Position numbers and translations under genes: made by a program | Source: Pseudomonadota bacterium | GTDB taxonomy: Bacteria; Pseudomonadota; Alphaproteobacteria; Kiloniellales; J153 | Assembly: GCA_022572105.1 (NCBI GenBank) | Contig: JACZWN010000002.1 | Span: forward strand, 1 to 49,113 | Length of the DNA stretch: 49,113 bases | Direction: 5' to 3' | Notes under the pieces: model-generated | Told to the model about the DNA's origin: nothing | Databases searched by the model: none | What the model saw: only the letters and a program-made list of their open reading frames with translations | Shown here: piece after piece, positions 1 to 44,838 of the stretch | Numbering within the stretch: the first letter of the stretch is position 1 | Layout of the letters: every line of letters starts with the position of its first letter

Positions 1-931
1 ACACCCCTCCGGTCAGCCCCACCTGGCACAACGGGCAGTGCCCGCGTCCCTTGGAAGCATTGATAATGCGTCTGTTGGCCAAGAACCCGTCGGAACGGCC
101 CGAGTCGGCCACCGACGTGCTCTCGGCACTGGACGCCATCGACCTTGCCACCAGCGTGGAACAACCTGCGGCGTCGTTGACGAAGCCCACTCCTTAGACA
201 GCCTGGCCGGAGGAGTGTTCGTGGGCCGGCAGCGGGAGATGGGGGAGCTGAAGGCCTGCCTGGAAGACGCATTGTCGGGAAAGGGCAGGCTGGTAACTTT
301 GGTGGGCGAGCCTGGGATAGGCAAGACCCGTATGGCTCAAGAACTTGCCTCCACCGCAGAGGAACTTGGTGGCCAAGTCTTGTGGGGGCGGTGCCATGAA
401 GGGCAAGGCAGGCCACCCTATTGGCCCTGGATCCAGCTCATCCGCTCGTACGTTCGAAACTGTGACACAGAGAGGCTCGCCGCCGAACTGGGCTCCGGCG
501 CCGCAATCATTGCCGAAGTTGTCCCCGAAATTGGGGAGAAAATCTCAAACCTGCCGCCACTGCCTGATCTCGAACCTGAGCAAGCGCGGTTTCGGCTGTT
601 CGACTCCGTCACCGCTTTCCTGAAACGTGCCGCCAACGCGAGGCCCTCGGTTCTCATACTGGAAGACCTTCAATGGGCTGATACCCCCTCTCTTTTGATG
701 CTGGAGTTTTTGAGCGCGGAGCTTTTGGATACGCCGCTCCTCCTGCTGGGGACTTACCGGGATGTGGAACTTCCCCGTAACAATCCGCTTTCCCACACCC
801 TGGGGGAGCTGGCCCGCCAGCAATATTTCAGAGAGTTCCTGCTACAAGGTCTGTCGCGCGAGGACGTGACCCGGTTCATGACCGGCGCGGCGGGTGTCGT
901 TCCAGTGCGGCCCACGGAATTCTGCCTGTGA
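1..931 (+). pseudogene. Remnant of a Ser/Thr protein kinase + AAA_16/STAND-type ATPase gene: 5'-partial at the window edge, frameshifted near 170-200, truncated at 931
   Basis: Frame 3 (3..197) reads PRPLEALIMRLLAKNPSERPESATDVLSALDAID, the C-terminal end of a Hanks-type kinase domain, then TAG at 195-197. Frame 2 continues FVGRQREMGELKACLEDALSGKGRLVTLVGEPGIGKTRMAQEL (Walker A) ... VLILEDLQWAD (Walker B). It stops at 931, where such proteins normally continue into long helical/TPR regions. Confidence 0.6.
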
Positions 932-992
932 GTTCCATTAATTCCGAATCCGGACATCGGAAAATGTATCCGAGTTCTCGCGTTCGGCGCGA

Positions 993-3900
993 TCACTGTT
1001 TAGCGAATTCCAAGAGATAACGCTCGCGGTCTGCCTTGCCATGGTTTTTCACCAGCTTAAATCCTGGGAACAGGTCTTCAAGCATGGCAATGAGGTCGTC
1101 GACGTGGTCGTATTGCCAGGCGGACGTTACCTTCCAGATCCCATCTTCCGGCTTTGCCCCGTTCTCTCTGAGCCGGCACTCGATGAGGATACGTTGGCAT
1201 ATCCCGGCAATGCGTTCGGCGTTGCGGGCAACGTTCCGCGTGTGATGAAGAACCGAAAACAGGATGACCGTGTCGAACTCTCCCGGGATCTCGCCCTTGT
1301 CGAGGTCGACGCATTGGTAGCGAATATCCTTGCCTAGGATGTTCGCGACGAACCGCGCGCCGTAGATGATGCTTTGATCTAGATCGATCCCCGTTACGCG
1401 GCAGTTGCGATCGTGAAGGTACATCGAGACAAGGCCCGCATTGCAGCCGACGTCCAGAATGCGCTCGCCCGGAGCGAACGCGACGGTATCGAGCAGCGAT
1501 CGCCTGTCACCGATGTCGCGTTCTCCATCGGAGTGGATCGACTCTTTCTGCAGCGTGTGATAGATGCCGCAAGCGGCGAGCGTGGTTTGCTGTCGGGAGT
1601 AAATTGTTGTTGCCCCGATATTGAACGAGCGATTGCGAAAATATTTCATGAAATTATTATTAACACTAAGGCTGGGGAAATATTGTAGAAATGACGAAAA
1701 ATCGTATTTTTCTTTTGCCCTTTCATCACACCACTTAAGAAAAGAGATATTGTCCATATTAATTACATCGTCATCAAGAAATTCCGCTTGGTCATAGTCG
1801 ATGAAATAGCAAATTCCAGCTTTCTCATCGACCCGCAGATTGTCGGGTTTAAGATCGCCATGGTACACACCAAGGTTTTTCTGTTCGATGAGCGACAGTA
1901 TCATGTCGGCCGGATTGAGACTGGTTCCCAAGGGCAAGTACTCTTCCACGATGAAGGGAAAGGTATCGTTGGGAACGGATCTCAAAAACGCCCTTTGCTC
2001 CTCACCGAGGCAAGGCAGCAAGTCTTCCGCGCCGATCGTCCCATAGAGGTGGACCTTCGGGGCGCTGACGCATCCGCGCTCGTTGAGACGCGCCATGATG
2101 TTCGCCTCTTGCTCGAGAGAGTTCGACTTGTTCGGATTATGTATCAATTCAATCTTGGCGAAATATTTTCCTTGCTGGCACACGCCGATTAGCACCTTTC
2201 CGCCCGAGTGAAATTTCAGGTTCTGGATTTCGATGCCTGGCCCCAGGCTAAGACTTGTCTTTTCGGGTGAAGGGGCCGGGCGATTTTCAATTTTTTGTAA
2301 GAAGTCGCTGAGCTGAATGCGCCCTTCATTGTCCCCCGGCCGCAATTCCAAGGAACGAGCGCACCAGGGCCGCCACATGTCGCGGTAAGCGGCCTCCATG
2401 TCGTGGGCAAAGGCCTTTGCGTCGCACAGCGGCGAATTCCGCATGCGGGTCCGCAGGCTTTCCCTGAGCGCCAAGAGCCGATCGAGATCACCGGCCAAGT
2501 CAACGGCGGTCCTTATGTAGGCCTCTTGCGTTGCCGCGGCGAGCTCCGGCATTCCCATCGAGGTCAACAGGCCAAGGCCGACCCGGGCGGCATGGCGATC
2601 TCCGCTTAACGTGATCATGGGCACGCCCATCCACAGCGCCTCGCAGGTCGTCGTCGTGCCGTTGTACGGAAACGGATCCAGCCCAATGTCGACTCCGGCG
2701 TAGGCAGCGAGATGTCCGGAAACCGATGGAATATCAGGAACCAACTCAATACATTCGATGTCGACACCATGCGCGACGAACATCTCCTTATATCGTTTCC
2801 GCAGCTCGTGCTGAGCAAACAGTCGGCTCTTGAGGAGGATTCGGGAGCCCGGCGTATGGTGGAGGATGGTGGCCCAGACCTCCACCACGTCCGGAGTCAC
2901 CTTCGCCAAGTTATTGAACGATCCGAAAGTAATGTAACCATTTGCCGCCGCCGGTAGGTCCGCGATCTCCGGCGCGTCGGCGGGTGGGACGTAACAAAGA
3001 AAACTTTTCGGCAGACGCACCAGTTTTTCCGAGTGCACCGCATCGGCGGTCCCCTCCGGGTCCACGATGGCGTCGGTCAGCCGGTAATCCATTGCCGTCA
3101 ATCCGGTCGTATTGGGGTAGCCAAGCCATGTCGCTTGCACCGGCGCCGGCCGTTGGGCGAACGTGAGAAGGCGGTTTGAAGACGTGTGCCCAGCAAGATC
3201 GATCAGAATGTCGATCCCGTCCTCGCGGATATGCTCGGCCAAGGCCTCGTCGCTCGTGCCAAATGTCCAGCGCCAGCCATCAGCGAGCGCTCGTAAACGG
3301 GTGGTCACCTCGTCGGGCCGGGCGACTTCGGCGTAGCAGAAAACTTCCACCGCATTCCGGTCGTGAGCGGCGAGCAAGGATTCGATGAAATAACTTACCG
3401 AGTGGCACCGGAAGTCGGGCGAGACATAGCCGATGCGCAGCCGCCGCTCAGGATCGGGAGTATTGGCGTGCGGCCGGGCGCGGATCGCGTGCGGCAGCGC
3501 GTGAATTTCATCCCAATGCCTGCTTTCGGCAAGGATGCTCTCCGCCGTGAAACGGGAGTGGAAGTTCATGGTGAAAATCAAGTTGCTGTGCGCCTCGGAG
3601 AAGCTGGGCTTGAGCGTCAAGGCGTTCCTGTAGGCCTCGATGGCTTCGTCTAGCCTGCCCATGTCTTTTAAGACCATGCCCAGGTTATTGTGAGCGCTCA
3701 CGTCGTTGGGGTCGAGGCGCAGCGCATGGTGGCAGTGGGCCAGAGCCTCGTCGGAATTGCCGCCACGAAGCAAGGCGGCGCCCAGGTTACTGTGTGCGGT
3801 CGTGTAGTCCGGCTTGATCTCGATCGCGCGGCGGCAGGCGGCGATGGCGTCGTCCAGTTCGCCGAATTCCTGCAACATCGCGCCCAGACTGTTGTGGGCC

Positions 3901-4430
3901 TCGGCGAAGTTCGGGTTGATTTCGGTGGCGCGGCGGTAGGCGGCCATGGCGCCGGCGGTATCGCTCGATTTCTGCAACAGGATGCCGAGGTTGTAATGCG
4001 GCTCGGCGTAGCCGGGCTTGACCCCTATGGCGCGGCGATAGGCGGCCGCCGCTTCGTCCAATCTGTCCGCCGCCTTGAGCGCGTTGCCCAGGTTGTTGTG
4101 CGCTTCGGCATAGCTGGGTTCGAGCCTGACCGCGGCCTGCAGGAGCTTGACGGCCTCCCCGATATGGCCCAACTCGCAGTTGGCCACGCCGCCAAGGTTC
4201 AATGCATCGAACTGATCGGGCCGGACCGCGAGGATCTTGCGGTAGAGTTGCAAGGCTTCGTGAGGATGGCCGGCCTTATGAAGCTTGACCGCTTCTTGCA
4301 GCGTGGCGTTGGCCGGTGCCGCGGCGCCGTTGCCCCTGCGCCCCTTTTTCGCCAAGCGCGCCGCCTGGCGGCGCTGCTGCCGGTTCGGTTTCGCGCCGGC
4401 CCTGGGGGAGGCGTTCGTAACCATCGTCAT
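993..4430 (-). CDS. 1145-aa multidomain protein: TPR repeats + GT41 (SPINDLY/OGT-like) glycosyltransferase + protein-kinase-like domain + SAM-dependent methyltransferase; candidate flagellin/flagellar glycan modification enzyme
   Basis: Single uninterrupted ORF with ATG at 4430, 48 nt downstream of fliW on the same strand. Domain motifs are listed in the four sub-features below. Confidence 0.85.
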   Translation of the reverse strand: MTMVTNASPRAGAKPNRQQRRQAARLAKKGRRGNGAAAPANATLQEAVKLHKAGHPHEALQLYRKILAVRPDQFDALNLGGVANCELGHIGEAVKLLQAAVRLEPSYAEAHNNLGNALKAADRLDEAAAAYRRAIGVKPGYAEPHYNLGILLQKSSDTAGAMAAYRRATEINPNFAEAHNSLGAMLQEFGELDDAIAACRRAIEIKPDYTTAHSNLGAALLRGGNSDEALAHCHHALRLDPNDVSAHNNLGMVLKDMGRLDEAIEAYRNALTLKPSFSEAHSNLIFTMNFHSRFTAESILAESRHWDEIHALPHAIRARPHANTPDPERRLRIGYVSPDFRCHSVSYFIESLLAAHDRNAVEVFCYAEVARPDEVTTRLRALADGWRWTFGTSDEALAEHIREDGIDILIDLAGHTSSNRLLTFAQRPAPVQATWLGYPNTTGLTAMDYRLTDAIVDPEGTADAVHSEKLVRLPKSFLCYVPPADAPEIADLPAAANGYITFGSFNNLAKVTPDVVEVWATILHHTPGSRILLKSRLFAQHELRKRYKEMFVAHGVDIECIELVPDIPSVSGHLAAYAGVDIGLDPFPYNGTTTTCEALWMGVPMITLSGDRHAARVGLGLLTSMGMPELAAATQEAYIRTAVDLAGDLDRLLALRESLRTRMRNSPLCDAKAFAHDMEAAYRDMWRPWCARSLELRPGDNEGRIQLSDFLQKIENRPAPSPEKTSLSLGPGIEIQNLKFHSGGKVLIGVCQQGKYFAKIELIHNPNKSNSLEQEANIMARLNERGCVSAPKVHLYGTIGAEDLLPCLGEEQRAFLRSVPNDTFPFIVEEYLPLGTSLNPADMILSLIEQKNLGVYHGDLKPDNLRVDEKAGICYFIDYDQAEFLDDDVINMDNISFLKWCDERAKEKYDFSSFLQYFPSLSVNNNFMKYFRNRSFNIGATTIYSRQQTTLAACGIYHTLQKESIHSDGERDIGDRRSLLDTVAFAPGERILDVGCNAGLVSMYLHDRNCRVTGIDLDQSIIYGARFVANILGKDIRYQCVDLDKGEIPGEFDTVILFSVLHHTRNVARNAERIAGICQRILIECRLRENGAKPEDGIWKVTSAWQYDHVDDLIAMLEDLFPGFKLVKNHGKADRERYLLEFAKQ
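996..1508 (-). other. Class I SAM-dependent methyltransferase module (aa ~975-1145)
   Basis: Motif I ILDVGCNAGLVSMYL, then acidic CRVTGIDLD, then FDTVILFSVLHH (motif post-I/II pattern). Confidence 0.75.
1641..2228 (-). other. Protein-kinase-like (eukaryotic-like / Kdo-WaaP-like) module (aa ~735-930)
   Basis: Catalytic-loop-like GVYHGDLKPDNLRV followed by ICYFIDYDQA (DFG-equivalent). It lies in a marked low-GC stretch. Confidence 0.6.
2361..3458 (-). other. GT41/SPINDLY-like glycosyltransferase module (aa ~325-690)
   Basis: RIGYVSPDFRCHSVSYFIESLL, IDILIDLAGHTSSNRL, ATWLGYPNTTGL..MDYRLTD, ITFGSFNNLAKVTP, DIGLDPFPYNGTTTTCEALWMGVPMITL. This is the motif order typical of bacterial TPR-OGT (Glyco_transf_41) proteins, recognised from memory rather than by a search. 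Confidence 0.75.
3576..4307 (-). other. TPR repeat module (aa ~42-285) of the fusion protein
   Basis: About seven 34-aa repeats with recurring AEAHNNLGNAL / A..AYRRAI...P signatures (SYAEAHNNLG, YAEPHYNLG, FAEAHNSLG, YTTAHSNLG, DVSAHNNLG, FSEAHSNL). Confidence 0.85.
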
Positions 4431-4478
4431 GGATCGAGATCCGATTACCGCGTCAAGAGTCCGGAGACGCCGCCGCGC

Positions 4479-4994
4479 TCACAGCGCGCCGTTCCAATTG
4501 TCGAGCGGCTGGCGCAGGGGATAGCGGTCGTTCGGCAGGACGTATTGGCGCGCCCGTCGCGCCTCGGGGTCGAACAGGATAGGCGCGCGGATATTGGCCC
4601 ACATGTCGATGCCCTCGCCGTCGTCCTTCGGCCGAATCGTGCACAGGAACATGACGTGGATCTCGTCCCGAACGAACCCGGTGGCGGTGCAGGCCTGATC
4701 GAGATCCGCCGCCTCGATGGGGGCCTCGTCGCTCGATATGGGCATGACGACGAAGGAGATCGGCGGCTCGCCGAGCGACTGCAGCAGCTTGAAGGCCTCG
4801 GGCACCGGCGCCGGCAGGTTGGCGAGGCCGAACAGCTGCTGATCGGCGAAGCCGATCAGGCCGTGCGGCATCACGACGGTCTGGGCCGGCGTGAACTCGT
4901 AGGTGCCGAACCTGGTCTCGACGATGACGGTTTCCGAGGGCAGCGCCGTCGGTCGGTCCGGCAACGCGAGAGCGCCGTCTGGGTTGAGCATCAT
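4479..4994 (-). CDS. fliW: Flagellar assembly factor FliW (CsrA antagonist)
   Basis: 171 aa. ETRFGTYEFTPAQTVVMPHGLIGFADQQLFGLANLP...FKLLQSLGEPPISFVVMP matches the FliW family pattern. Sits directly downstream of flgL. Confidence 0.85.
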   Translation of the reverse strand: MMLNPDGALALPDRPTALPSETVIVETRFGTYEFTPAQTVVMPHGLIGFADQQLFGLANLPAPVPEAFKLLQSLGEPPISFVVMPISSDEAPIEAADLDQACTATGFVRDEIHVMFLCTIRPKDDGEGIDMWANIRAPILFDPEARRARQYVLPNDRYPLRQPLDNWNGAL

Positions 4995-5063
4995 CGGGGG
5001 ATCCTCCTTATCCTTCGTCTTTGCCGCCGGCTGGACCGGGTGATATCGTCATAAGCGCCGCGC

Positions 5064-6674
5064 CTAGCGCAGGAAGTTTGCGAGCGAGAGTTGACTGAGG
5101 CGCGCGGTGAGCATGTACGAAGCCTCGAGGAAGGTCTGGTCGATGCTCAGACGCGCCACGGCCGCGGCGATGTCCACGTTCTCGATCTGTCCGATCGACT
5201 CGGTGGTGAAGACGGTAAAATCCTGATGCCGCGTCTTCATCTGCTCCAACGCCAGGAGATCGGAACCGATCTTGGAGCGGATGTCGGGTATCTCGTCCAT
5301 CGCCGCGATGACGATGCCGAGCGCCGATTCGAGCGTGGCGCGATCGATGCTGCCGGGCGCGACGTTCGCGTTGCGCACCATGTACAGGCTGCGGACCAGC
5401 TTCTCGATCCCGGGCTCGTTGGCCTTGATGCCGAATTCGATGGTCGCGTTGAGGTCGATTCGGACGTAGAGCTTGGCGCTGTCGCCCTTGTAGAAGCCGG
5501 GATTGGCCGTGTCGTATCCGGGATCGCCGGGCCGCGCCTCCTTGACGTTGACCGAACCATCGCTCGCCGCGACGTTCTCGAGGAAGTCGTCGAGCCGGAT
5601 CTCGGTATCGGGATCGGCGATGGCCGCGTCGTTGAGGCCGGTGGTGACGCCGACGCTGAGCACAACGGTCGCGCCGGTGGTCGCGTTCGTGAGCGTGACT
5701 GGAACGGTGGCGATGGTGCTCAAGTCCACGCCGGTCGCGACGAAGTTGCCGTCGCTGGAGTTGAGCGTCAGCGTGGCGCTGGCGGCCGTGCCCGAGGTTT
5801 CGATCCTGTTCAGGTTGATCTTGCTGATATCGCCGCTGGTCGAGGTCACGGTGATCGCGCCGAACGCGCCCACGCCCGCGCCGTCGACGTTGCCGACGAT
5901 GGTGTCGGTCACGATCGAGGTCCCCAGGTTGAAGTTCTCGTCGACCGTGACCACGACGCGCTTGGTGCCGACGGTGAAGGTGATGTCGGTGGTCTGGCCC
6001 GCGGCGGGCGCGGCGTTCAGGACGAAGGTGTCGGAGGCGCCGCCGTTCAGGTTGGTCACCGTAAAGGTCTTGGTCCCGCTGTCGTATGTGAGCTGGAAGG
6101 CGTCGCCCGTGGTCCCCGAATCGACCCGAACCCGGCTGATGCCGGTAAATCCGGTAAGGCCGGTGGTGGAGGTCGTCGCCGCGCCCTTGAATTCGGCGGC
6201 ATCGACCAGCGGTACGGTCGGGCTGAGCAGGACCGATACATCGATCGGCGGGATATCGATCCGGGATCCGCTGAACAGGAAGCGGTTGTCCTGCTTGATG
6301 TTGAGGGCGCCGGCCAGCTCCTGGAGCATGTCCTCGGCGCGCTGGTTGAGCGTGAGCAGCGAGGCATTGTCCACGTTGAGGGCGGTGATTAGCAGATCCC
6401 GGAACCGCGACGCCACGTCGAACATGCCGGCGATACTGCTCTCCATCAATTGCAGCCGGCCTTCGGTCACCTCGATGTTCCTGACGAAGCCTTCCACTTC
6501 GGTGACCGCGTTCTCCAGGTTCACCAAGCGGCGCGCATCGATCGCGACGCCGGCGTAGCCGCGGCTGACCTTGCCGCTCGAGATTTGCATCTGGGTCTCG
6601 AACAGGCGGCTCTGGGCGTCCAGCGTCTGTGACAGGTTCAGCTTGTGAGCGGCTAAGGTGGAGAAGCGGATCAT
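5064..6674 (-). CDS. flgL: Flagellar hook-associated protein 3 FlgL (flagellin-family termini, enlarged central region)
   Basis: Start moved to the ATG at 6674 (MIRFSTLAAHKLNLSQTLDAQSRLFETQMQISSGKVSRGYAG), 10 nt after the flgK stop. The tracked 651-aa ORF has an Arg/Ser-rich N-terminus that overlaps flgK out of frame. C-terminus IDQTFLEASYMLTARLSQLSLANFLR. Confidence 0.8.
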   Translation of the reverse strand: MIRFSTLAAHKLNLSQTLDAQSRLFETQMQISSGKVSRGYAGVAIDARRLVNLENAVTEVEGFVRNIEVTEGRLQLMESSIAGMFDVASRFRDLLITALNVDNASLLTLNQRAEDMLQELAGALNIKQDNRFLFSGSRIDIPPIDVSVLLSPTVPLVDAAEFKGAATTSTTGLTGFTGISRVRVDSGTTGDAFQLTYDSGTKTFTVTNLNGGASDTFVLNAAPAAGQTTDITFTVGTKRVVVTVDENFNLGTSIVTDTIVGNVDGAGVGAFGAITVTSTSGDISKINLNRIETSGTAASATLTLNSSDGNFVATGVDLSTIATVPVTLTNATTGATVVLSVGVTTGLNDAAIADPDTEIRLDDFLENVAASDGSVNVKEARPGDPGYDTANPGFYKGDSAKLYVRIDLNATIEFGIKANEPGIEKLVRSLYMVRNANVAPGSIDRATLESALGIVIAAMDEIPDIRSKIGSDLLALEQMKTRHQDFTVFTTESIGQIENVDIAAAVARLSIDQTFLEASYMLTARLSQLSLANFLR

Positions 6675-6684
6675 GGCATCGCTC

Positions 6685-8487
6685 CTAGGCGCCGAGTTGG
6701 AGCAATATGTCGAAGAGGTCGTCGACGACCTGGATGACCCGCGCCGTCGCCGCGTAGGCGTTTTCGTAAAGCACCATGTTGCGGAGCTCCTCGTCGATGT
6801 TGACGCCGCTGATCGAGTCGTTGCGGAACGACAGCTCCTCGAACAAGGTTTGCTTGAACAACGCCGTTTTCTCCGCGCTCGCCGCGGAAATGGCGGTCGT
6901 GGAGAGAATCTCGGAGGCGTAACTGGCGAGGGTGGTGGCGGTAAACGGCAGCCCGCCGATCGCCGCGAACTGCAGATCCTCGAGAAATTTGTCGGCCAAC
7001 GACTGGATGATCGAGGCATCGCCGAGCGCGACCGCCAGTTCGCCGGCCTTGGGCGCCGGCGCGGTGGTCGAAATCAGAGCGCCGCGCGCGAGCCGCGCGG
7101 GATCGCTTACGATGTCGCTGCGGACCTGGATCAAGGCGGCGAGGTTCGAGATCGAATCGCCCTGCACCCGGCTCGGCGTCACGAACAAATCGTTCAGCCC
7201 GAAATAGTTGGAAAAACCGCTATAGGTCGTCGTGCCGTCGGTATGGGTTACCGTCTGGCTGGCGAGATCGACGATCGCGATGCCGTTGGTCGACTTGTCG
7301 GCCGCGATCGAGAGCGGACCACCGGTACTGGTGGAGGCGGTTGCGAACCCACTCAGGTTGGTGTCGATCAACGTCTCGATCTGCTTGACCGTGTAGGTCC
7401 CGGCCGCGAGGTCGTAGTGGGCGACGAAGTTGCCGCTAGCGTCGACCACCGCGATGCGCACCGCGGCGCTGAACGTGATCGTGTCCGAGGCCGGCAGCGC
7501 GAAGCTCCGCGTGCCGGTCAACGTGTTTGGAGGGGGTCGGCTGGTCCCGGCATTATGCAACGCGTTCATCTGGTCGCGCAGCATCTGGGTGAGCATGTCG
7601 ATCTGCGCCTGTAGGTTGGGCAGGATCGTGTCGCGCGCCTGGATTATGCCGCCGAGCTCGCCCGATTTGATGCCCGCCGTGATGTCGTTGGGGCCCGACA
7701 TGATCGGGCCGATCCCGCCGCCCGCATAGGTGATATCGGGTGTCAATGCGCCGGCCGGCGTGTGGCTGAGCGGGTGGGCGACCTTGTCGGCCAGGACACG
7801 GCCGTCCGGCAGCGTGACCACGATCTCGCCGCTCGTGCGCTTGAAGAAGCGGATATCGATCAGCTCCGAAATATTGGCGAGGGCCCGGTCTCGAAGGTCC
7901 TCCAGATTGGCTGTTGACTCGCCGAGCGCTTGACTGCTTTGGATGCTCGCATTGAGGTCGGCGATCTTTTCGAGCTCCGTATTGATCAGTTTGATTTTCG
8001 CGGTGATGTCTCGATCCGCGTCGAAGCGGAGCGTCTGGATATGCTGGGACATCTCGTTGAGCTGCCTGGCCAGGGCCACGGCGGCGGATACCACCTCGTT
8101 GCGGTGCGCCGAGCTGTCGGGCGAGATCGCTAGTCCCTGCATCGCAGTCGCCAGATCCGCGATCGTGGCGCCGAGCGCGGCGTCGTTTGTCAGCGTTCCG
8201 AACTGGTTCATAATCCGTTCGTAGTAGAAATTCTGCGCCCGGGCGTCGCCGAGCGTGCTGAGCGTTGTCCGTAGATCGGCCAGCAATCGCTCGTCCACCA
8301 CGCGATTGAGATCGCCGAGTTCCACGCCCCTGCCTTCCCCTGCCACGGTGACGGAGGTGGGTTGGGCGATCTTGCGCGTATACCCTTCGACGTTGGCGTT
8401 GGTGACGTTGTTCGCGATGACCTGAATCATGGCCTCGTTGGCCTGGAGGCCACTCAGGGCATTCTGTAGGGCGATCGAGAGCGACAT
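6685..8487 (-). CDS. flgK: Flagellar hook-associated protein 1 FlgK
   Basis: 600 aa. MSLSIALQNALSGLQANEAMIQVIANNVTNANVEGYTRK N-terminus and EELRNMVLYENAYAATARVIQVVDDLFDILL C-terminus are canonical FlgK. Confidence 0.92.
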   Translation of the reverse strand: MSLSIALQNALSGLQANEAMIQVIANNVTNANVEGYTRKIAQPTSVTVAGEGRGVELGDLNRVVDERLLADLRTTLSTLGDARAQNFYYERIMNQFGTLTNDAALGATIADLATAMQGLAISPDSSAHRNEVVSAAVALARQLNEMSQHIQTLRFDADRDITAKIKLINTELEKIADLNASIQSSQALGESTANLEDLRDRALANISELIDIRFFKRTSGEIVVTLPDGRVLADKVAHPLSHTPAGALTPDITYAGGGIGPIMSGPNDITAGIKSGELGGIIQARDTILPNLQAQIDMLTQMLRDQMNALHNAGTSRPPPNTLTGTRSFALPASDTITFSAAVRIAVVDASGNFVAHYDLAAGTYTVKQIETLIDTNLSGFATASTSTGGPLSIAADKSTNGIAIVDLASQTVTHTDGTTTYSGFSNYFGLNDLFVTPSRVQGDSISNLAALIQVRSDIVSDPARLARGALISTTAPAPKAGELAVALGDASIIQSLADKFLEDLQFAAIGGLPFTATTLASYASEILSTTAISAASAEKTALFKQTLFEELSFRNDSISGVNIDEELRNMVLYENAYAATARVIQVVDDLFDILLQLGA

Positions 8488-12175: not shown

Positions 12176-13681
12176 ATGGTCGAGGTTTCGGAAAGCGAAC
12201 TGGGCACCGCTCTGGAGCCGCCGGTCGACGCCCCCGGGGGCTCCGCCAGCGAAGACGCAGCGGTTTTCGCCCGCGTGGCTCGGCCGGAACCCGGCGAGAC
12301 GTTGGTGGTGCCGGCGGAAGCCGGCCTGCTGCTGGTGGTCGAGTTCAATCCCGCCAACGCCGGGTTCGCCGTCGAGGGCGACGATTTCGTGCTGACCCTC
12401 GAGGACGGCGCCCGGGTCGTGTTCGAGGGCTTGGTCTCGGCCGCCCAGGGCGAGGACGCGCCCACGGTTCGGATCGCCGGCATCGATATCGGGGCCGATG
12501 TCCTGATCGATCAGGCCCTGGCTGTTGCCGGCGCCGACGAGCCCATCGAGACCGCGGCCGGCGAGGATGGCGAGGACGAGGGTGTCGCCGGCGGCGGCGG
12601 ATCGGAGTATGTCGACTCATTCGGCGACCTGATCGCCGGCCTGATCGCGCAGGGCGTCATCGGCGAGACCGAACTGGGCTTCGGGCTGATCGGAAGCGGC
12701 GGCACGGAGCTTCCGGTCGACGCGGAGTTTCTGTTCGAGGGCTTTCTCCCAAGCGGCGGCGGCTTCTCGACCCTCGATTTCGGCTCGCCCGGCGTGCTGT
12801 CGCCGGTGGATTCGGGGCCGAGCGAATCCGGCGGCGCCCTGGCCCCGCTCGTCGTTGACCCTATCAACATCATCACCAACGAGGCGACCGGGAACCTGCA
12901 GATCCCGGACGAGCTGATCCTCTATCTGGCCGCGGACGATCAGGACGTTAGCCTGAGCATGGCCGGGCCAGCCTACGACGGCGGGGTCGATAACGCCTAC
13001 ATCTGGGCCGCCGGCACCCTGGCGCTTAGCGGTTCCGATCCCGCCAACACCTGGGCCAACCACGTCAACGATCACGTCAACTACCATATCGGCAACGGCA
13101 ACCCGACCTACGAGGGCAGCTTCACCTACGAGGTTGCCAACGGGCAAGGCGCCACGGGTTACGGCGCGATCCACGTCGAGAACTTCGAGACCGCCCAGTC
13201 GCGCGGCTACTGGGCGCTGACGGGGACCGACGACGACGAGGTGCTGCTCGGTCTCGACGGTCGCAACCAGATCGACGGCGGCGGCGGCAACGACATCATC
13301 CACGGCGGCCACGATAACAGCGGCGACATCCTGATCGGCGGCGCCGGCGACGACGTGATCTTCGGGGGCTCGGGCAACGACGACCTGCGAGGCGGCACGG
13401 GCGACGACACCTTCCTGATGAGCGCCGGCTTCGGCCGCGACGACGTGGACGGCGGCGACGGCACGGACATCATCTCGCTCGACAGCGTCCTGACGTCCGC
13501 CGACCTGGGCGACACGAACGACCTAAGCGCATGGCTTACCGCCGACCAGGGCTACACTCACGTTACCGCCGACAACACGATCACCTTCAGCGCCTCCGCC
13601 AGCGGCACCATCGACCTGGGCGGCGGCAACGAGATCACCTTCCTGAACATCGAGCAGATCGTCTACACGGATATTATTTGA
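12176..13681 (+). CDS. RTX-type calcium-binding repeat protein (probable T1SS substrate)
   Basis: 501 aa, acidic, no Cys. GGxGxD nonapeptide run: IDGGGGNDIIHGGHDNSGDILIGGAGDDVIFGGSGNDDLRGGTGDDTF. No N-terminal signal peptide. C-terminus ...ITFLNIEQIVYTDII. Confidence 0.8.
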   Translation: MVEVSESELGTALEPPVDAPGGSASEDAAVFARVARPEPGETLVVPAEAGLLLVVEFNPANAGFAVEGDDFVLTLEDGARVVFEGLVSAAQGEDAPTVRIAGIDIGADVLIDQALAVAGADEPIETAAGEDGEDEGVAGGGGSEYVDSFGDLIAGLIAQGVIGETELGFGLIGSGGTELPVDAEFLFEGFLPSGGGFSTLDFGSPGVLSPVDSGPSESGGALAPLVVDPINIITNEATGNLQIPDELILYLAADDQDVSLSMAGPAYDGGVDNAYIWAAGTLALSGSDPANTWANHVNDHVNYHIGNGNPTYEGSFTYEVANGQGATGYGAIHVENFETAQSRGYWALTGTDDDEVLLGLDGRNQIDGGGGNDIIHGGHDNSGDILIGGAGDDVIFGGSGNDDLRGGTGDDTFLMSAGFGRDDVDGGDGTDIISLDSVLTSADLGDTNDLSAWLTADQGYTHVTADNTITFSASASGTIDLGGGNEITFLNIEQIVYTDII

Positions 13682-22432: not shown

Positions 22433-23206
22433 ATGGCCGGCCCGCGCCCCGCCAGCCACAGCGACGGTCCCAAAACCGGGGCCGCGTCGTCTTTCCTTCC
22501 CCGGCTCGCGAAACCAGGCTGGGTCGGCTCGGCGAACCAGGCCTGGATGATCACATTCACCGACCTCGTCGCGCTGATGCTGGCGTTCTTCGTGCTGCTC
22601 TTCGCCATGTCGCAGGTCGAGCAGAAAAAATGGCAGGGACTCGTCGATTCGCTGAACGCCGATCTCAACGCCCTCAAGTCGGTCGAGCGCGTCAAGCCGG
22701 CGCTCGATTATCACCCGGAGGACGAAGCGGTCCTCCCCGGCGCCGACCTGGACTATCTGGCGTCCGTGTTGCGCCAGCAAATCGCGGCGCACGCCTTGTT
22801 GGCGCGCGGCACGATCCGACGACTGCCGGACCGCCTGGTCGTCTCCCTGCCGGCCGATCTGCTATTCCGGGCTAATGCCACCACCCTCGCACCCGGGGCC
22901 AGGGACGCGGGCTTCGCGCTCGGCGGGGTGCTGCGCAACCTGAACAACCGGATCGAGGTGGCGGCCCGCGTACGACACAGCGACCGGGCGCACGGGCGGC
23001 GCTCCGACTGGCAACTGGCGCTGGCCCGCGCCGCGCTCTTCACCGGCATGTTGACGCGCGCCGGTTACCGAGGTCCGATCGTAGCGCGCGGCATTGTGGA
23101 GAGCCGCGCCGGGGGGCAGGCGCCCGCGTCGAGCGCGGAGCCTGGCGGGCTCCAGGGCGATCGCCTCGATATCGTGATTCACGAATTTGCCCGGGAGTCG
23201 CAATGA
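22433..23206 (+). CDS. MotB-like / OmpA-like protein 2 (TM Asp conserved)
   Basis: WMITFTDLVALMLAFFVLLFAMS (compare E. coli ADFMTAMMAFFLVMW), then LVVSLPADLLFRANATTLAPGARDAGFALGGVL...SDWQLALARAALFTGMLTRAGY. Confidence 0.7.
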   Translation: MAGPRPASHSDGPKTGAASSFLPRLAKPGWVGSANQAWMITFTDLVALMLAFFVLLFAMSQVEQKKWQGLVDSLNADLNALKSVERVKPALDYHPEDEAVLPGADLDYLASVLRQQIAAHALLARGTIRRLPDRLVVSLPADLLFRANATTLAPGARDAGFALGGVLRNLNNRIEVAARVRHSDRAHGRRSDWQLALARAALFTGMLTRAGYRGPIVARGIVESRAGGQAPASSAEPGGLQGDRLDIVIHEFARESQ

Positions 23207-26200: not shown

Positions 26201-26544
26201 AGGAGAACTGGCCGGCCGCGGTGCTCGCGCTCGAGCGCCTGGTGCCGGCGACCCCGCCGTCCGAGCGTCCGTTGCGCGAAGCCGAAAGCGACGCCGTGCT
26301 CGACCTGGCGGTGGCGCTGACCATGGCCGGCGAGCGTGACAAGATCCTGGCGCTGGGGCGGACCTACGAGGACGGCATGTCGCGTGGGCCGAACAAGCAT
26401 GCCTTCGCCCTGCTGGTCGGCGATCTGGAGCCGAACCGGGTCAAGTCGGCCGCCGAGGAATTGGCTCAGGTCGATCAGGTCGAGGCGTTCCTGGCCAGCT
26501 ACCGCAAGCGCACCGGAGCGAGCGGCCAAGCCACTACTCAATAA
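23203..26544 (+). CDS. 1113-aa secreted protein: signal peptide, beta-rich AMIN-like N-module, Pro/Ala/Lys low-complexity linker, large helical TPR-like C-terminal region; function unknown
   Basis: The start overlaps the MotB-like 2 stop (ATGATG/TGA). Signal peptide LLYLVLAVLVAAGAPAVGVWA. FSRIVFDWSRPV...VVLRFDRV...LVVTLTVVPG. Linker with KVSEKVSEK and ETKTKAETKTK repeats. C-terminal ~600 aa are helical with TPR-like A/L/R periodicity. Confidence 0.7.
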   Translation: MMPGSRLLYLVLAVLVAAGAPAVGVWAAERVAVRVGEHPGFSRIVFDWSRPVGARVERQGGQGGYVVLRFDRVGELDLARFRADPPPEVSRIAARPEGDGLVVTLTVVPGAKTRLFESEGKTVLDVLKPGTLDDARATTPEDWRRRRAAGRSEAKSTPAPVPERRPSPPKAGDAAAAQAAKVGDPKARAGTPPARGAPISLLPPATSESEPKSADRSAAPEKAPGKVSEKVSEKAGKNAPGSQDAKAKTVAPAAPAETKTKAETKTKVGPKAKPGRAASASSDKQPRGTVSATGLAAAGVPSMPSGEASGASPVLVSSGSAPVLIETSPMPGRSLSRGIPRALRFDWPEVTAAAAFRRGGKLWLVFDRPPTGDLAGDISRMAPELEPVEQFEVAGATVIRFAAPAMLTANLRREKAAWIVDLQPGVPDGGTEIEVLVEGSAARARVVYRVETPGRMVSFIDPDLGDRLIVVPVPTAQLGLRVTREFPQFRVLASHQGLVFQPLSESLQVEVTAKAVVLRDREGLIVSRGSSLALLKSNVAAPRRGPRLFDLDAWRRGGAERFRVNKHMLQGALARAEPAHADAARFELARFYFAHGLASEALGMLRLAGQTDPRMALDPRLRLVEGASEFLTDDLAGAAEVLFDPSLAGEWEADLWRAALAAARLDWGLAATGFAQTEALIAAYPHAVRVRLRLLAAEAGLAVGDHEGAERYLEAVRRDDPSHTEEAQVAFLVARRLHLDGDTETAAALWRRVAAGKHASSRIRARLALLDLALEDGSTTTEQAIEELERLRFAWRGDRFEFALLQRLGDLYVLRGDYRKGLRLLRRAASHTQNSEVSRAAASRMRVIFTNLFSGQADAKLPPLKALALFEEFKELTPPGPKGDEVILRLVDRLVAVDLLDRAAGILESQVEYRLRGTAKARVAARLALVRLLNQEPAKAVAVLKASALPDLPDGLVGERRILRTRALLQLDRADEALVSLGTDDSVEALRLRAQILSHQENWPAAVLALERLVPATPPSERPLREAESDAVLDLAVALTMAGERDKILALGRTYEDGMSRGPNKHAFALLVGDLEPNRVKSAAEELAQVDQVEAFLASYRKRTGASGQATTQ

Positions 26545-44300: not shown

Positions 44301-44838
44301 CCCAGGCTCGAGCCAAGCGCTCTCGGTCGTCGGGGTGGATGGCCTGAAGGAGCTGTTCCTCGGAAGGCCAAACATTGCTCGCGGGCCGGCCCCGGGAATC
44401 GCGCACATCTCCATGGATGGGAAGGTACTGTGTCAGCCTGGCCTCGGCTGTCCAGTTCCACGCCCTAATCCTGGCTGACTGAAACGCCTGTGCCAGGCGG
44501 GATACGTCTGTGCGATATGAGGCCTCCTGCCGATCCCGTTCAGCCAGGAGCCGCTCGAGTTCTTGGACACGCCGCCGATAGGATTCCAACGCCTCAAGGG
44601 GATCGGCCGTCGTCGCCCCGGCGGCCTTGCTGCCGCGCGCCTCCGCGGCGACTCCCTCCAAGAGTTCGAGGTCTTCCACGGGTACCAGTACCGCAAGCGG
44701 CCGGCCGCGGCGCTCGATGGTGATCCGCTCCTTGCCGTAGGCGGCCCGGCTCAGGATCTCGGCGAAGTTGTTCCGGGCCCAAGAGGCGCTCGCCGTGGCG
44801 CTTGTGGTGGCGCTCGTGGTTGGCATCGTCCGGGGCAT
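41341..44838 (-). CDS. Hybrid sensor kinase with an N-terminal Phd/YefM antitoxin-like domain, multiple PAS domains, HisKA, HATPase_c and REC
   Basis: N-terminus [42 protein letters not shown] (Phd/YefM pattern). H-box [59 protein letters not shown]...[12 protein letters not shown]...KPF. AAGGAGGAG RBS before the ATG at 44838. No internal ATG for the first ~250 codons. Confidence 0.8.
41573..41617. repeat. 15-bp tandem repeat x3 inside the receiver domain coding region
   Basis: CCCGAACGCTCGGCC / CCCGAACGCTCCGCC / CCCGATCGCTCCGCC. Encodes [15 protein letters not shown] immediately N-terminal to IDLLLTD. Confidence 0.95.

What the first reader, a model, noticed from the sequence alone, without database searches (positions are those of the whole stretch)
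993..4430. Four enzymatic/scaffold modules fused in one ORF at the tail of the flgK-flgL-fliW string: TPR + GT41-like GT + kinase-like + SAM-methyltransferase
A single 1145-aa ORF starts 48 nt after fliW. It ends a co-directional gene string, flgI to fliW, with gaps of no more than 69 nt. TPR plus glycosyltransferase is the architecture of known flagellin glycosyltransferases (FlmG-type). A kinase paired with a SAM methyltransferase is the architecture of WbdD-type glycan chain terminators, which cap a polymer with methyl-phosphate. I know of no described protein with all four modules in one polypeptide, or with this combination encoded in a flagellar operon. Hypothesis: one enzyme recognises flagellin or hook-associated proteins through its TPRs, glycosylates them, and phosphorylates and/or methylates the glycan.
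Basis: partly seen in the sequence, partly recalled or inferred. Interest (0 to 1): 0.8.

Follow-up and report, generated by a model that had tools for sequence, protein, structure and literature searches.

The report
Flagellin glycosyltransferase fused to kinase-methyltransferase module
A real 1145-residue gene at the end of a flagellar operon joins a SPINDLY-type protein glycosyltransferase to a small, uncharacterised kinase-plus-methyltransferase module; the same combination recurs next to flagellin genes in unrelated bacteria, so it is probably a one-protein machine that glycosylates flagellin and then decorates the sugar.

Summary
Window 993-4430 (minus strand) is one intact 1145-aa ORF, 48 nt after fliW, with four supported parts:
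- 7.5 TPRs.
- A GT41 catalytic domain. It matches plant SPINDLY at E 2e-164 and keeps all five SPY active-site residues.
- A truncated eukaryotic-type protein-kinase fold. Its K, E, D, N and D catalytic residues are conserved in the family.
- A class I SAM methyltransferase.

The kinase+MT half is a rare, unnamed family (191 clusters among 1.84 billion representatives), not a WbdD orthologue. Its domain order is reversed, it has no coiled coil, and the similarity to WbdD is generic.

The four-module architecture is not unique. It recurs in Planctomycetota next to flagellin and fliS, in a sialic-acid-like sugar operon, and in permuted order. Split versions also exist, with TPR-GT41 and TPR-kinase-MT as neighbouring genes. 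GT41+MT fusions in flagellin islands were described in 2016.

A 99%-identical contig places flagellin, flaG, fliD and fliS directly downstream.

Most likely function: O-glycosylation of flagellin, then phosphorylation and/or methylation of the sugar. The chemistry is untested.

Verdict: a new variant of a known kind, of moderate interest.

The parts
993..4430 (-). Whole ORF: 1145 aa plus stop codon. TPR, GT41, kinase-like and methyltransferase modules in one polypeptide.
   Evidence: ORF list and translation. Same ORF at 99.4% amino-acid identity in L006.
4311..4430 (-). Basic N-terminal tail, aa 1-40, rich in R/K/Q/A. No Pfam match covers all of it (a BTAD stretch begins at aa 28).
   Evidence: Translation. 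Pfam: the TPR array starts at aa 41; the best BTAD stretch, aa 28-134, overlaps the end of the tail.
3555..4310 (-). TPR array, aa 41-292. Seven 34-residue repeats in register plus a capping half-repeat, with an Asn ladder. Presumed acceptor-protein docking surface.
   Evidence: Pfam TPR_1/2/11 and related families, E 1e-31 to 1e-48. Register shown. Role of the TPR and Asn ladder in SPY taken from PMC9715652.
2331..3554 (-). GT41 (SPINDLY/OGT-type, GT-B) catalytic domain, aa 293-700. H343, S344, K510, Y589 and T593 correspond to SPY H495, S496, K665, Y744 and T748.
   Evidence: Pfam PF13844, E 4.6e-60. Near-gapless alignment to SPY residues 435-847, E 3e-114. Residue positions.
2199..2330 (-). 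Linker, aa 701-744. Low GC3 (0.57) and the least conserved stretch against the relatives (dN 0.10-0.15).
1506..2198 (-). Truncated eukaryotic-type protein-kinase-like domain plus a conserved helical 'bridge', aa 745-975. Catalytic set: K759, E775, D859 (HGD), N864, D878/D880 (IDYDQ). Family-invariant motifs in the bridge: QxTT (947-950), YH (957-958) and GxR (969-971).
   Evidence: Family alignment invariants. Profile against PDB gives CK2, E 1.4e-5. AF2 pLDDT 92.5 and Foldseek kinase hits. dN/dS 0.11-0.17.
996..1505 (-). Class I SAM-dependent methyltransferase, aa 976-1145. Motif I is LDVGCNAGL (992-1000). Acidic residues D1016/D1018 and D1042/D1044; FSVLHHT at 1058-1064.
   Evidence: Pfam Methyltransf_11/12/25/23. 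PDB sequence hits include 3bkw and the WbdD methyltransferase domain, E 2e-5 to 6e-5. Foldseek. dN/dS 0.17.
4479..4994 (-). fliW, the flagellin-binding assembly factor, immediately upstream and co-directional.
   Evidence: Pfam FliW, E 3.5e-15.
5064..8487 (-). flgK (6685-8487) and flgL (5064-6674), the hook-filament junction genes upstream in the same string.
   Evidence: Pfam. Gene calls in the near-identical contig L063.

Best explanation
**What it is**
The ORF is a functional cytoplasmic enzyme of an uncultured alphaproteobacterium. It modifies flagellin, or less likely another exported flagellar axial protein, before export.

**How it most likely works**
1. The TPR superhelix docks the acceptor protein (inferred from SPY, OGT and FlmG).
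2. The SPINDLY-type GT41 domain transfers a monosaccharide from a nucleotide sugar to Ser/Thr of flagellin's Ser/Thr-rich central domain. Catalytic competence is shown by conserved residues. The acceptor and the donor are inferred; the donor is unknown.
3. The C-terminal unit is an ATP-dependent eukaryotic-type kinase-like domain rigidly packed against a class I SAM methyltransferase. It decorates the newly attached sugar with phosphate and methyl. The result is either a methyl-phosphate cap, as WbdD makes, or separate phospho and O-methyl groups (inferred).

**Origin**
The fusion arose from neighbouring TPR-GT41 and TPR-kinase-MT genes, with loss of the second TPR array. The same coupling has evolved more than once.
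For: **The gene is real and constrained**
- It is an intact ORF in two assemblies.
- dN/dS against relatives about 91% identical in DNA is 0.11-0.12 (kinase), 0.13-0.17 (bridge), 0.17 (MT) and 0.34 (GT41).

**Active sites are kept**
- SPY residues H495, S496, K665, Y744 and T748 are all conserved (residue roles from PMC9715652).
- In 25 family members at 40-73% identity, the kinase K, E, D and metal-binding D and the SAM motifs are invariant. The catalytic-loop Asn is kept in at least 90%.

**The two-domain C-terminal unit models confidently**
- pLDDT 92.6, pTM 0.91.

**Flagellin link**
- L006 (99% identical): fliW, this gene, a 516-aa flagellin (27% Ser/Thr in its central domain), flaG, fliD, fliS.
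- L021 (Phycisphaerae): fliK, flagellin, fliS, then a 1028-aa TPR-GT41-kinase-MT gene. L130, L132, L139 and L140 carry the same gene set within the locus.
- P0247 sits beside fliK and che genes.
- L012, L095 and L096: a stand-alone kinase-MT gene lies between flagellin and fliK/flgE, with ManC, Gmd, a HAD hydrolase, a GT30-like transferase and a sulfotransferase.

**Coupling to GT41**
- A GT41 homologue lies within 10 kb in 8 of 20 family loci, against 0 of 30 control methyltransferase loci from the same scan (Fisher p = 2e-4).
- Split form: TPR-GT41 directly upstream of TPR-kinase-MT in L002 and L009.
- Only one in-frame stop codon separates the two genes in L067 and L090.
- A permuted fusion, kinase-MT-TPR-GT41, exists in P0230.

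**Glycan rather than protein target**
- The module is also fused to GT2 arrays without TPR (L026, P0249).
- It lies in a NeuB/sulfotransferase/ABC-transporter cluster in a Pelagibacteraceae genome (L024).
- It lies beside sugar-nucleotide dehydratase-like genes in 24 of 80 metagenome loci.

**Analogy to WbdD**
- WbdD appears both in the sequence search of the C-terminal half (through its methyltransferase part) and in the fold search with the kinase half.
- Phospho- and methyl-bearing flagellin glycans are known in C. difficile and P. aeruginosa (PMC4441256, PMC11833859).
Against: - No biochemical data exist for any member of the kinase-MT family, and no curated family names it.
- The best kinase fold matches are protein kinases (FIKK13, GSK3, CK2, CK1; TM 0.36-0.45), so the fold does not say 'sugar kinase'.
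- No sugar-nucleotide biosynthesis genes and no flagellin gene lie in the 49-kb window itself. At window position 876 the sequence diverges from L006, and an AAA_16 ORF replaces the flagellin block.
- Several related clusters (L002-L005, P0230) show no flagellar genes within 8-10 kb.
- Two close relatives carry in-frame stops.
- TPR dN/dS is 0.68, and window versus L006 gives 7 non-synonymous against 2 synonymous changes.
- The genomic-context tests used tblastn with a few query proteins, not a full annotation.
Confidence: 0.55

Rival explanations
1. The kinase-like domain is a true protein kinase and the methyltransferase a protein methyltransferase. The enzyme would put three independent marks (sugar, phosphate, methyl) directly on flagellin residues, not on the glycan.
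For: - The nearest sequence and fold matches of the kinase half are Ser/Thr protein kinases: CK2 at E 1.4e-5, and FIKK13, GSK3, CK1 and PknG.
- Many family members carry their own TPR array (P0122, P0126-P0130, L009), which is a protein-docking device.
Against: - The domain stops soon after the DFG-equivalent motif. Only 150-180 columns align for most hits, and the model shows no region that aligns with a protein-kinase C-lobe.
- The module is also fused to TPR-less GT2 arrays, and it sits in polysaccharide-type clusters, including one in a Pelagibacteraceae genome.
- The methyltransferase resembles small-molecule and sugar O-methyltransferases (EvdMO1, UbiG, WbdD), not SET-type lysine methyltransferases.
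- WbdD shows that an ePK fold can phosphorylate a sugar (PMC3482155).
Confidence: 0.15
2. The kinase-MT unit acts before transfer. It would make or tailor the donor, for example by phosphorylating and methylating a free sugar or other small molecule that is later activated and handed to the GT41 domain.
For: - Pfam's only kinase hit is the small-molecule phosphotransferase family APH.
- Stand-alone members sit inside sugar-nucleotide operons: ManC, Gmd and HAD in L012, and a NeuB/CMP-transferase operon ahead of P0218.
- In C. difficile and P. aeruginosa the methyl group is thought to be added to a CDP-linked precursor (PMC11833859).
Against: - No nucleotidyltransferase is fused to the module, and no sugar-activation genes were found in the window.
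- Repeated fusion to TPR arrays, and to the C-terminus of the transferase, fits action on the protein-bound product better.
Confidence: 0.15
3. The acceptor is not flagellin. The enzyme would be a general SPY/OGT-like regulator of cytoplasmic proteins, or would modify another surface protein, and its place after fliW would be incidental.
For: - TPR-enzyme clusters holding the module in marine contigs L002-L005 and in the P0230 locus show no flagellar genes in the flanks that were read.
- Bacterial GT41 enzymes with non-flagellar targets are known: a pilin in Synechococcus (PMC9306852) and multiple proteins in Yersinia (PMC11329713).
Against: - The gene ends a tightly spaced flagellar string, and in L006 it abuts flagellin.
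- The same architecture is adjacent to flagellin and fliS in a different phylum.
- Flagellar genes lie near 4 of 20 family loci against 0 of 30 controls (p = 0.02).
Confidence: 0.15
4. The long ORF is an assembly artefact or a decaying pseudogene, and the four-module protein is not made.
For: - L007 has in-frame TGA codons at residues 657 and 715. L008 has an in-frame TAA at residue 899.
- GC3 varies from 0.84 (TPR) to 0.49 (bridge) within the ORF.
Against: - Two assemblies give the identical 1145-aa reading frame.
- The C-terminal half has dN/dS of 0.11-0.17.
- Each stop in the relatives sits where a T is inserted and a base is lost within a few nucleotides, at A/T-rich spots. That is compatible with sequencing error.
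- Independent fusions of the same modules exist in other lineages.
Confidence: 0.03

Closest known systems
Arabidopsis SPINDLY (SPY) and bacterial SPY/OGT-like GT41 enzymes (7y4i, 8dtf; Thermobaculum OGT 5djs)
   Same: - An N-terminal TPR superhelix with an Asn ladder, joined directly to a GT41 GT-B catalytic domain.
- E 2e-164 to SPY.
- SPY residues H495, S496, K665, Y744 and T748 are all conserved.
- No OGT-type intervening domain.
   Different: - Carries about 445 extra C-terminal residues (linker, kinase-like domain and methyltransferase).
- Only 7.5 TPRs.
- Bacterial and flagellar context.
- The donor sugar is unknown; SPY uses GDP-fucose and OGT uses UDP-GlcNAc.
FlmG flagellin O-glycosyltransferase of Caulobacter and Brevundimonas (PMC7591256; bioRxiv 10.1101/2022.03.25.485807)
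   Same: - A soluble two-part enzyme: N-terminal TPRs, which bind flagellin in FlmG, plus a C-terminal GT-B transferase.
- Alphaproteobacterial and encoded with flagellar genes.
   Different: - FlmG (596 aa) has no kinase or methyltransferase part.
- FlmG transfers pseudaminic or legionaminic acid. No nonulosonic-acid genes were found in this window.
- Sequence relatedness to FlmG could not be tested here.
WbdD of E. coli O9a (4azs, 4azt, 4azw; PMC3482155)
   Same: - One polypeptide combines a eukaryotic-type kinase fold with a class I SAM methyltransferase.
- WbdD appears both in the sequence search of the C-terminal half (through its methyltransferase part) and in the fold search with the kinase half.
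- It is a precedent for phosphorylating a terminal sugar and methylating the phosphate.
   Different: - Reversed domain order: WbdD is MT, kinase, coiled coil.
- No coiled-coil ruler or membrane-targeting region here.
- The similarity is generic: methyltransferase E about 3e-5, kinase fold rank 29.
- WbdD acts on a polyprenol-linked polymannose in an ABC-transporter O-antigen pathway, not on a glycoprotein.
GT41-AdoMet methyltransferase fusions in enterobacterial flagellin glycosylation islands (De Maayer & Cowan 2016, PMC4875605)
   Same: A SPINDLY-family GT41 transferase carrying a fused SAM methyltransferase domain, encoded next to flagellin genes. Known from comparative genomics only.
   Different: - That paper mentions no kinase-like domain.
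- None of the named members of the kinase-MT family found here is enterobacterial.
- Orthology was not tested.
Phospho- and methyl-bearing flagellin glycans of C. difficile (type A) and P. aeruginosa PAO1 (b-type) (PMC4441256, PMC11833859)
   Same: - Flagellin O-linked monosaccharide further substituted through phosphate, with a SAM-dependent methylation step.
- The transferase and phosphotransferase are fused in PA1091.
   Different: - Different enzymes: a GT2 transferase, a CDP-threonine route and a glycerophosphotransferase-type domain.
- There the methyl group goes on threonine nitrogen.
- No eukaryotic-type kinase is involved.

Membership tests
CAZy GT41 (SPY/OGT-type protein glycosyltransferases) | Match to the GT41 catalytic-domain model above the curated threshold | tested here: met
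   PF13844, 203.8 bits against a cutoff of 25. SPY E 3e-114 over the catalytic domain.
CAZy GT41 (SPY/OGT-type protein glycosyltransferases) | TPR array immediately N-terminal to the catalytic domain | tested here: met
   Seven and a half TPRs at aa 41-292, running straight into the catalytic domain.
CAZy GT41 (SPY/OGT-type protein glycosyltransferases) | Active-site and donor-binding residues (SPY H495, S496, K665, Y744, T748) | tested here: met
   They align to H343, S344, K510, Y589 and T593. Residue list from PMC9715652.
CAZy GT41 (SPY/OGT-type protein glycosyltransferases) | Identity of the nucleotide-sugar donor and O-glycosylation of Ser/Thr | not testable with these tools
   Needs an enzyme assay or glycoproteomics.
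FlmG-type flagellin glycosyltransferases | Two-domain layout, TPR plus GT-B, encoded with flagellar genes | tested here: met
   FlmG layout from PMC7591256.
FlmG-type flagellin glycosylransferases | Sequence homology to FlmG (CCNA_01524) | not tested
FlmG-type flagellin glycosyltransferases | Dependence on a pseudaminic or legionaminic acid pathway | tested here: inconclusive
   No NeuB or CMP-sugar synthetase genes were found among the window ORFs scanned. The window is only 49 kb. The related four-module protein P0218 does follow a NeuB/CTP-transferase operon.
FlmG-type flagellin glycosyltransferases | TPR domain binds flagellin | not testable with these tools
   Needs a two-hybrid or pull-down assay.
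WbdD-type bifunctional kinase-methyltransferase glycan terminators | Eukaryotic-type kinase fold with an intact catalytic set | tested here: met
   K759, E775, D859 and D878 are family-invariant and N864 is kept in at least 90% of members. Supported by the CK2 alignment and by Foldseek.
WbdD-type bifunctional kinase-methyltransferase glycan terminators | Class I SAM methyltransferase in the same polypeptide | tested here: met
   The WbdD methyltransferase domain is among the top PDB sequence hits (E 3e-5).
WbdD-type bifunctional kinase-methyltransferase glycan terminators | Domain order: N-terminal methyltransferase, then kinase | tested here: not met
   Here the kinase (745-975) precedes the methyltransferase (976-1145). 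WbdD has the methyltransferase at 1-210 and the kinase at 211-459 (PMC3482155).
WbdD-type bifunctional kinase-methyltransferase glycan terminators | C-terminal coiled-coil region (trimerisation, molecular ruler, membrane and WbdA recruitment) | tested here: not met
   The protein ends with the methyltransferase fold. The model shows beta strands up to residue 409 of 410.
WbdD-type bifunctional kinase-methyltransferase glycan terminators | Encoded in an ABC-transporter-dependent O-antigen cluster | tested here: not met
   The scanned window ORFs are flagellar, chemotaxis, sensor-kinase, CoA-transferase, RTX, AAA-ATPase or recA genes, or have no match.
WbdD-type bifunctional kinase-methyltransferase glycan terminators | Phosphorylates a terminal sugar hydroxyl and methylates that phosphate | not testable with these tools
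   Needs in vitro assays with 31P-NMR or mass spectrometry.
Enterobacterial flagellin-island GT41-methyltransferase fusions (PMC4875605) | GT41 and an AdoMet methyltransferase domain in one protein at a flagellin locus | tested here: met
Enterobacterial flagellin-island GT41-methyltransferase fusions (PMC4875605) | Orthology, i.e. the same methyltransferase subfamily and no kinase insert | not tested
   No enterobacterial sequence was retrieved. None of the kinase-MT family members that carry an organism name is enterobacterial.

The most novel reading that the evidence does not exclude
The kinase-MT unit may define a new family of glycoprotein-finishing enzymes, independent of WbdD. After a TPR-guided GT41 (or GT2) puts a sugar on flagellin, a minimal eukaryotic-type kinase would phosphorylate that sugar, and the packed methyltransferase would methylate the phosphate. 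That would be the first methyl-phosphate-capped protein O-glycan, made start to finish by one polypeptide. The recurrent fusion, splitting and permutation with GT41 across Alphaproteobacteria and Planctomycetota would mark a conserved three-step pathway.
Probability: 0.25. Interest if true: 0.7.

Novelty: new variant of a known kind. Interest (0 to 1): 0.55.

Why it matters
- **A targeting question that can be tested.** Flagellin glycosylation shapes motility, filament assembly, phage recognition and immune evasion. How glycan-tailoring steps are directed to a protein-bound sugar is poorly understood.
- **An unnamed enzyme family with a clear hypothesis.** The finding isolates a small, unnamed enzyme family: a minimal eukaryotic-type kinase packed against a SAM methyltransferase. 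Fusions, neighbouring genes and permuted forms tie it to protein glycosyltransferases in at least two phyla. That yields a direct hypothesis: sugar transfer, then phosphorylation, then methylation.
- **A ready experimental system.** One protein plus the neighbouring flagellin can be reconstituted in E. coli.
- **Annotation.** The C-terminal module can now be labelled. Sources currently call it 'UbiG/2-polyprenyl... methylase' or 'methyltransferase domain-containing protein'.
- **Possible tool.** It may offer an enzyme for installing charged, capped sugars on proteins.

Tried and rejected
1. **Fold search with the whole C-terminal model.** It returned only methyltransferases. The kinase half had to be modelled and searched separately.
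2. **Full-length homologue search.** It suggested, wrongly, that the architecture occurs only in close relatives. The C-terminal searches and contig scans corrected this.
3. **Third word-indexed search, with the kinase profile.** It gave only 30 hits and added little. The exhaustive representative search was the useful one.
4. **Species identification.**
   - The window's species is not among the GTDB representatives; the best match there is 44% identical.
   - 90%-identity cluster members are labelled Proteobacteria, Alphaproteobacteria or Kiloniellaceae MAGs.
5. **More copies of the gene through fliW cluster members.** Those contigs end at the start of the gene.
6. **Aminoglycoside or choline kinase (APH) membership.** Rejected: only the catalytic loop matches Pfam APH, and the profile and the fold both point to protein-kinase-like enzymes.
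7. **SET-type lysine methyltransferase identity.** Rejected: the methyltransferase is a generic class I small-molecule type.
8. **Internal promoter or terminator scan.** Nothing exceeded the shuffled expectation.
9. **The two 172-aa ORFs upstream of flgI.** They are not paralogues.
10. **NCBIfam.** No model reaches its cutoff for either half.

Full report
**1. The observation**

The ORF list shows a single ATG-initiated ORF of 1145 codons on the minus strand at 993..4430.
- It starts 48 nt after the stop of fliW (4479-4994; Pfam FliW).
- It closes a co-directional string: flgI, a rod-binding flgJ-like gene, a flgN-like gene, flgK, flgL and fliW. The largest gap is 69 nt. Gene limits were checked against the near-identical contig L063.
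- The rest of the window is a flagellar and chemotaxis region. It holds flgH, flgA, flgG, flgF, fliL, fliM, motB-like genes, fliP, fliE, flhB and cheZ, followed by sensor kinases and recA.
- The window is a whole 49,113-bp metagenomic contig. Members of the 90%-identity clusters of its flagellar and RecA proteins are labelled Alphaproteobacteria or Kiloniellaceae MAGs. The species is not among the GTDB representatives.

**2. The four modules**

*TPR and GT41*
- Pfam gives TPR families at E 1e-31 to 1e-48 and Glyco_transf_41 at 4.6e-60.
- Seven TPRs lie in exact 34-residue register at aa 41-278, with a capping half-repeat and the usual Asn at position 6.
- The first 735 residues match Arabidopsis SPINDLY at E 2e-164, better than human OGT.
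- The catalytic part aligns almost without gaps to SPY residues 435-847. It keeps H495, S496, K665, Y744 and T748, here H343, S344, K510, Y589 and T593. The roles of these residues are taken from PMC9715652.

*Methyltransferase*
- The methyltransferase is a plain class I enzyme: Pfam E about 1e-9, with motif I LDVGCNAGL.

*Kinase-like part*
- This is the weakest module by Pfam. APH scores 30.4 bits, over the HGDLKPDN loop only.
- A profile of 17 family members hits casein kinase 2 at E 1.4e-5. The beta3 Lys, the alphaC Glu, the catalytic loop and the DFG-equivalent Asp all align.
- AlphaFold models are confident: pLDDT 92.6 and pTM 0.91 for the two-domain unit, and 92.5 for the kinase half.
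- Foldseek places the kinase half among eukaryotic-type protein kinases at probability 1.00. TM-scores are only 0.36-0.45, and for most hits about 150-180 columns align, because the fold is cut short after the metal-binding Asp.

**3. Is the ORF genuine?**
- Contig L006, from another assembly, carries the same 1145-aa frame with 7 amino-acid differences.
- Against two relatives about 91% identical in DNA, dN/dS is 0.11-0.12 in the kinase, 0.13-0.17 in the bridge, 0.17 in the methyltransferase, 0.34 in GT41 and 0.68 in the TPRs. The C-terminal half is therefore the most constrained part.
- Those two relatives do carry in-frame stops, at residues 657 and 715 in L007 and 899 in L008. Each sits where a T is inserted and a base is lost within a few nucleotides, at an A/T-rich spot. 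That looks like sequencing error, but I cannot exclude real inactivation or splitting.
- GC3 falls from 0.84 (TPR) to 0.49-0.63 (linker, kinase, bridge). This fits a chimeric origin.

**4. What the C-terminal half is**
- Searched alone, it finds about 77 strong homologues at 38-90% identity, most covering over 90% of its length.
  - Most are stand-alone proteins of about 410-475 aa.
  - Named examples come from Ca. Pseudothioglobus, Ca. Terasakiella, Ca. Methylopumilus and Parcubacteria.
  - Sources call them 'UbiG-like methylase' or 'methyltransferase domain-containing'.
  - The closest relatives are TPR-kinase-MT proteins (P0122 at 74%; P0126-P0130 at 53-57%).
- An exhaustive HMMER search with the kinase-half profile against 1.84 billion representatives finds only 191 clusters at E <= 1e-3. 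The family is small.
- No NCBIfam model reaches its cutoff.
- Across 25 members, the kinase K, E, D and metal-binding D, a QxTT...YH...GxR bridge and the SAM motifs are invariant. The catalytic-loop Asn is kept in at least 90% of members.
- The kinase-like domain almost never occurs without the methyltransferase.

**5. Context and architecture census**

*Split forms*
- L002 has a 714-aa TPR-GT41 gene directly upstream of a 626-aa TPR-kinase-MT gene, inside a cluster of TPR-glycosyltransferase genes.
- L009 has two GT41 genes followed by a TPR-kinase-MT gene.
- In L067 and L090 a single in-frame stop separates GT41 from kinase-MT.

*Four-module fusions elsewhere*

| Protein or locus | Size | Source and neighbours |
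|---|---|---|
| L021 | 1028 aa | Phycisphaerae; preceded by fliK, flagellin and fliS |
| L130, L139, L140 | 1025, at least 1012, and 1027 aa | Flagellin and fliS in the same locus |
| L025 | 1096 aa | Planctomycetota; follows three more GT41 genes |
| P0218 | 1042 aa | Follows a NeuB / CMP-sugar synthetase / aminotransferase / MT / sulfotransferase / radical-SAM operon |
| P0247 | 982 aa | Beside fliK and che genes |

*Other combinations*
- Permuted order, kinase-MT-TPR-GT41 (P0230).
- Kinase-MT fused to GT2 arrays (L026, P0249, P0257).
- Kinase-MT fused to a sulfatase-type domain (P0235).
- Kinase-MT fused to a capsule-synthesis domain (Thiorhodococcus, L010).

*Phylogeny*
- A neighbour-joining tree of the module puts the window next to TPR-kinase-MT proteins. 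The planctomycete fusions fall in a separate clade, so the GT41 fusion arose at least twice (no bootstrap).

*Statistics*
- GT41 lies within 10 kb in 8 of 20 species-representative family loci, against 0 of 30 control methyltransferase loci from the same scan (p = 2e-4).
- Flagellar genes lie near 4 of 20 family loci against 0 of 30 controls (p = 0.02).
- Among 80 JGI metagenome loci, 14 have flagellar genes, 9 have GT41, 11 have GT2 arrays and 24 have a sugar-nucleotide dehydratase-like gene.
- Stand-alone members also sit in non-flagellar glycan clusters, for example with NeuB, a sulfotransferase and an ABC transporter in a Pelagibacteraceae genome.

**6. The flagellin link for this gene**
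- L006 matches window 5995..876 at 99.1% and then continues into a 516-aa flagellin, flaG, a 1267-aa fliD and two fliS genes.
- The central domain of that flagellin is 27% Ser/Thr.
- In the window, the homology stops at position 876, and a convergent AAA_16 ATPase ORF (38-931) occupies the contig end. This may be an insertion, strain variation or an end-of-contig assembly problem.

**7. Mechanism**
- Shown:
  - a constrained, intact four-domain protein;
  - competent-looking GT41, kinase and SAM sites;
  - recurrent genetic coupling of the kinase-MT unit to TPR-guided glycosyltransferases and to flagellin loci.
- Inferred:
  - the TPRs dock flagellin, as in FlmG (PMC7591256) and SPY (PMC9715652);
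  - GT41 O-glycosylates flagellin in the cytoplasm;
  - the kinase-MT unit then modifies the attached sugar.
- The module travels with glycosyltransferases of different families and lives in polysaccharide clusters as well as flagellar ones. For that reason I favour a glycan target over a protein target.
- TPR-fused versions argue that the substrate is protein-bound rather than a free precursor.
- Whether the product is a methyl-phosphate, as made by WbdD (PMC3482155), or separate phosphate and O-methyl groups is open.
- Phospho- and methyl-containing flagellin glycans exist in C. difficile and P. aeruginosa, but they are made by unrelated enzymes (PMC4441256, PMC11833859).

**8. Comparison with known systems**
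- **GT41.** The N-terminal half is a member on every testable criterion.
- **FlmG.** It works like FlmG, but homology to FlmG was not tested.
- **WbdD.** The C-terminal half works like WbdD but is not a WbdD family member.
  - The domain order is reversed.
  - There is no coiled coil and no O-antigen context.
  - The similarity is generic: the methyltransferase scores E 3e-5, and the kinase fold ranks 29th.
- **Enterobacterial fusions.** GT41 fused to an AdoMet methyltransferase in flagellin glycosylation islands was already noted in Enterobacteriaceae (PMC4875605). That paper mentions no kinase.
- **Literature.** Searches of the held literature found no description of a kinase-methyltransferase unit in flagellar glycosylation.

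**9. Verdict**

Two corrections apply:
- The architecture is recurrent rather than unique.
- The WbdD label is an analogy, not a classification.

The new element is the conserved, uncharacterised kinase-MT module and its repeated marriage to protein glycosyltransferases. I rate it a new variant of a known kind, with interest 0.55.

Noticed in passing
window 1-931 (break at about 876); L006 5117-12586: The 99%-identical contig L006 continues past the gene into flagellin, flaG, fliD and two fliS genes. The window instead diverges at position 876 into a convergent AAA_16/STAND-like ATPase ORF (38-931, + strand) that runs to the contig end. This may be an insertion, strain variation or an end-of-contig mis-join.
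   Followed up: partly
L007 (residues 657 and 715 of the ORF) and L008 (residue 899): Relatives about 91% identical in DNA carry in-frame TGA/TAA codons. Each sits where a T is inserted and a base is lost within a few nucleotides, at an A/T-rich spot. The surrounding codons still show purifying selection.
   Followed up: partly
L067 6103-6105; L090 4710-4712: In two metagenome contigs, a GT41 gene and a kinase-MT gene lie in the same frame, separated by a single stop codon. This is one mutation away from the fused architecture, or a read-through candidate.
   Followed up: partly
window 1500-1950 (aa about 827-977): GC falls to 41-43%, against about 65% for the contig. GC3 is 0.49-0.63 in the linker, kinase and bridge, against 0.84 in the TPR part. 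The mosaic composition suggests the C-terminal module was acquired from a lower-GC source.
   Followed up: partly
P0230 (locus L060, 8001-10946): An alphaproteobacterial MAG protein of 981 aa carries the same four modules in permuted order (kinase, MT, TPR, GT41). Its neighbourhood is not flagellar.
   Followed up: partly
L012 3992-20189 (also L095, L096): In Rhodospirillales MAGs, a stand-alone kinase-MT gene sits inside a flagellar locus. Its neighbours are flagellin, ManC, GDP-mannose 4,6-dehydratase, a HAD hydrolase, a Kdo-transferase-like (GT30) gene, a sulfotransferase, fliK and a 1091-aa flgE. This hints at a 6-deoxyhexose-based, sulfated or phosphorylated flagellar glycan made without GT41.
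   Followed up: partly
window 41341-44838 (-): A 1165-aa hybrid histidine kinase (PAS x3, HisKA, HATPase, receiver) has an N-terminal Phd/YefM antitoxin domain (E 6e-12). This is an unusual fusion.
   Followed up: no
L006 7769-11572; window 5064-6674: The filament cap FliD next to the gene is 1267 aa, and FlgL is 536 aa. Both seem unusually long to me.
   Followed up: no
window 12176-13681 (+): A 501-aa protein with RTX calcium-binding repeats is encoded between the flgI-side and flgH-side flagellar blocks, on the opposite strand.
   Followed up: no
window 23203-26544 (+): A 1113-aa ORF in the most GC-rich stretch (71-73% GC) follows two MotB-plug ORFs. It has only marginal TPR/ANAPC3 hits, and its function is unknown.
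   Followed up: no
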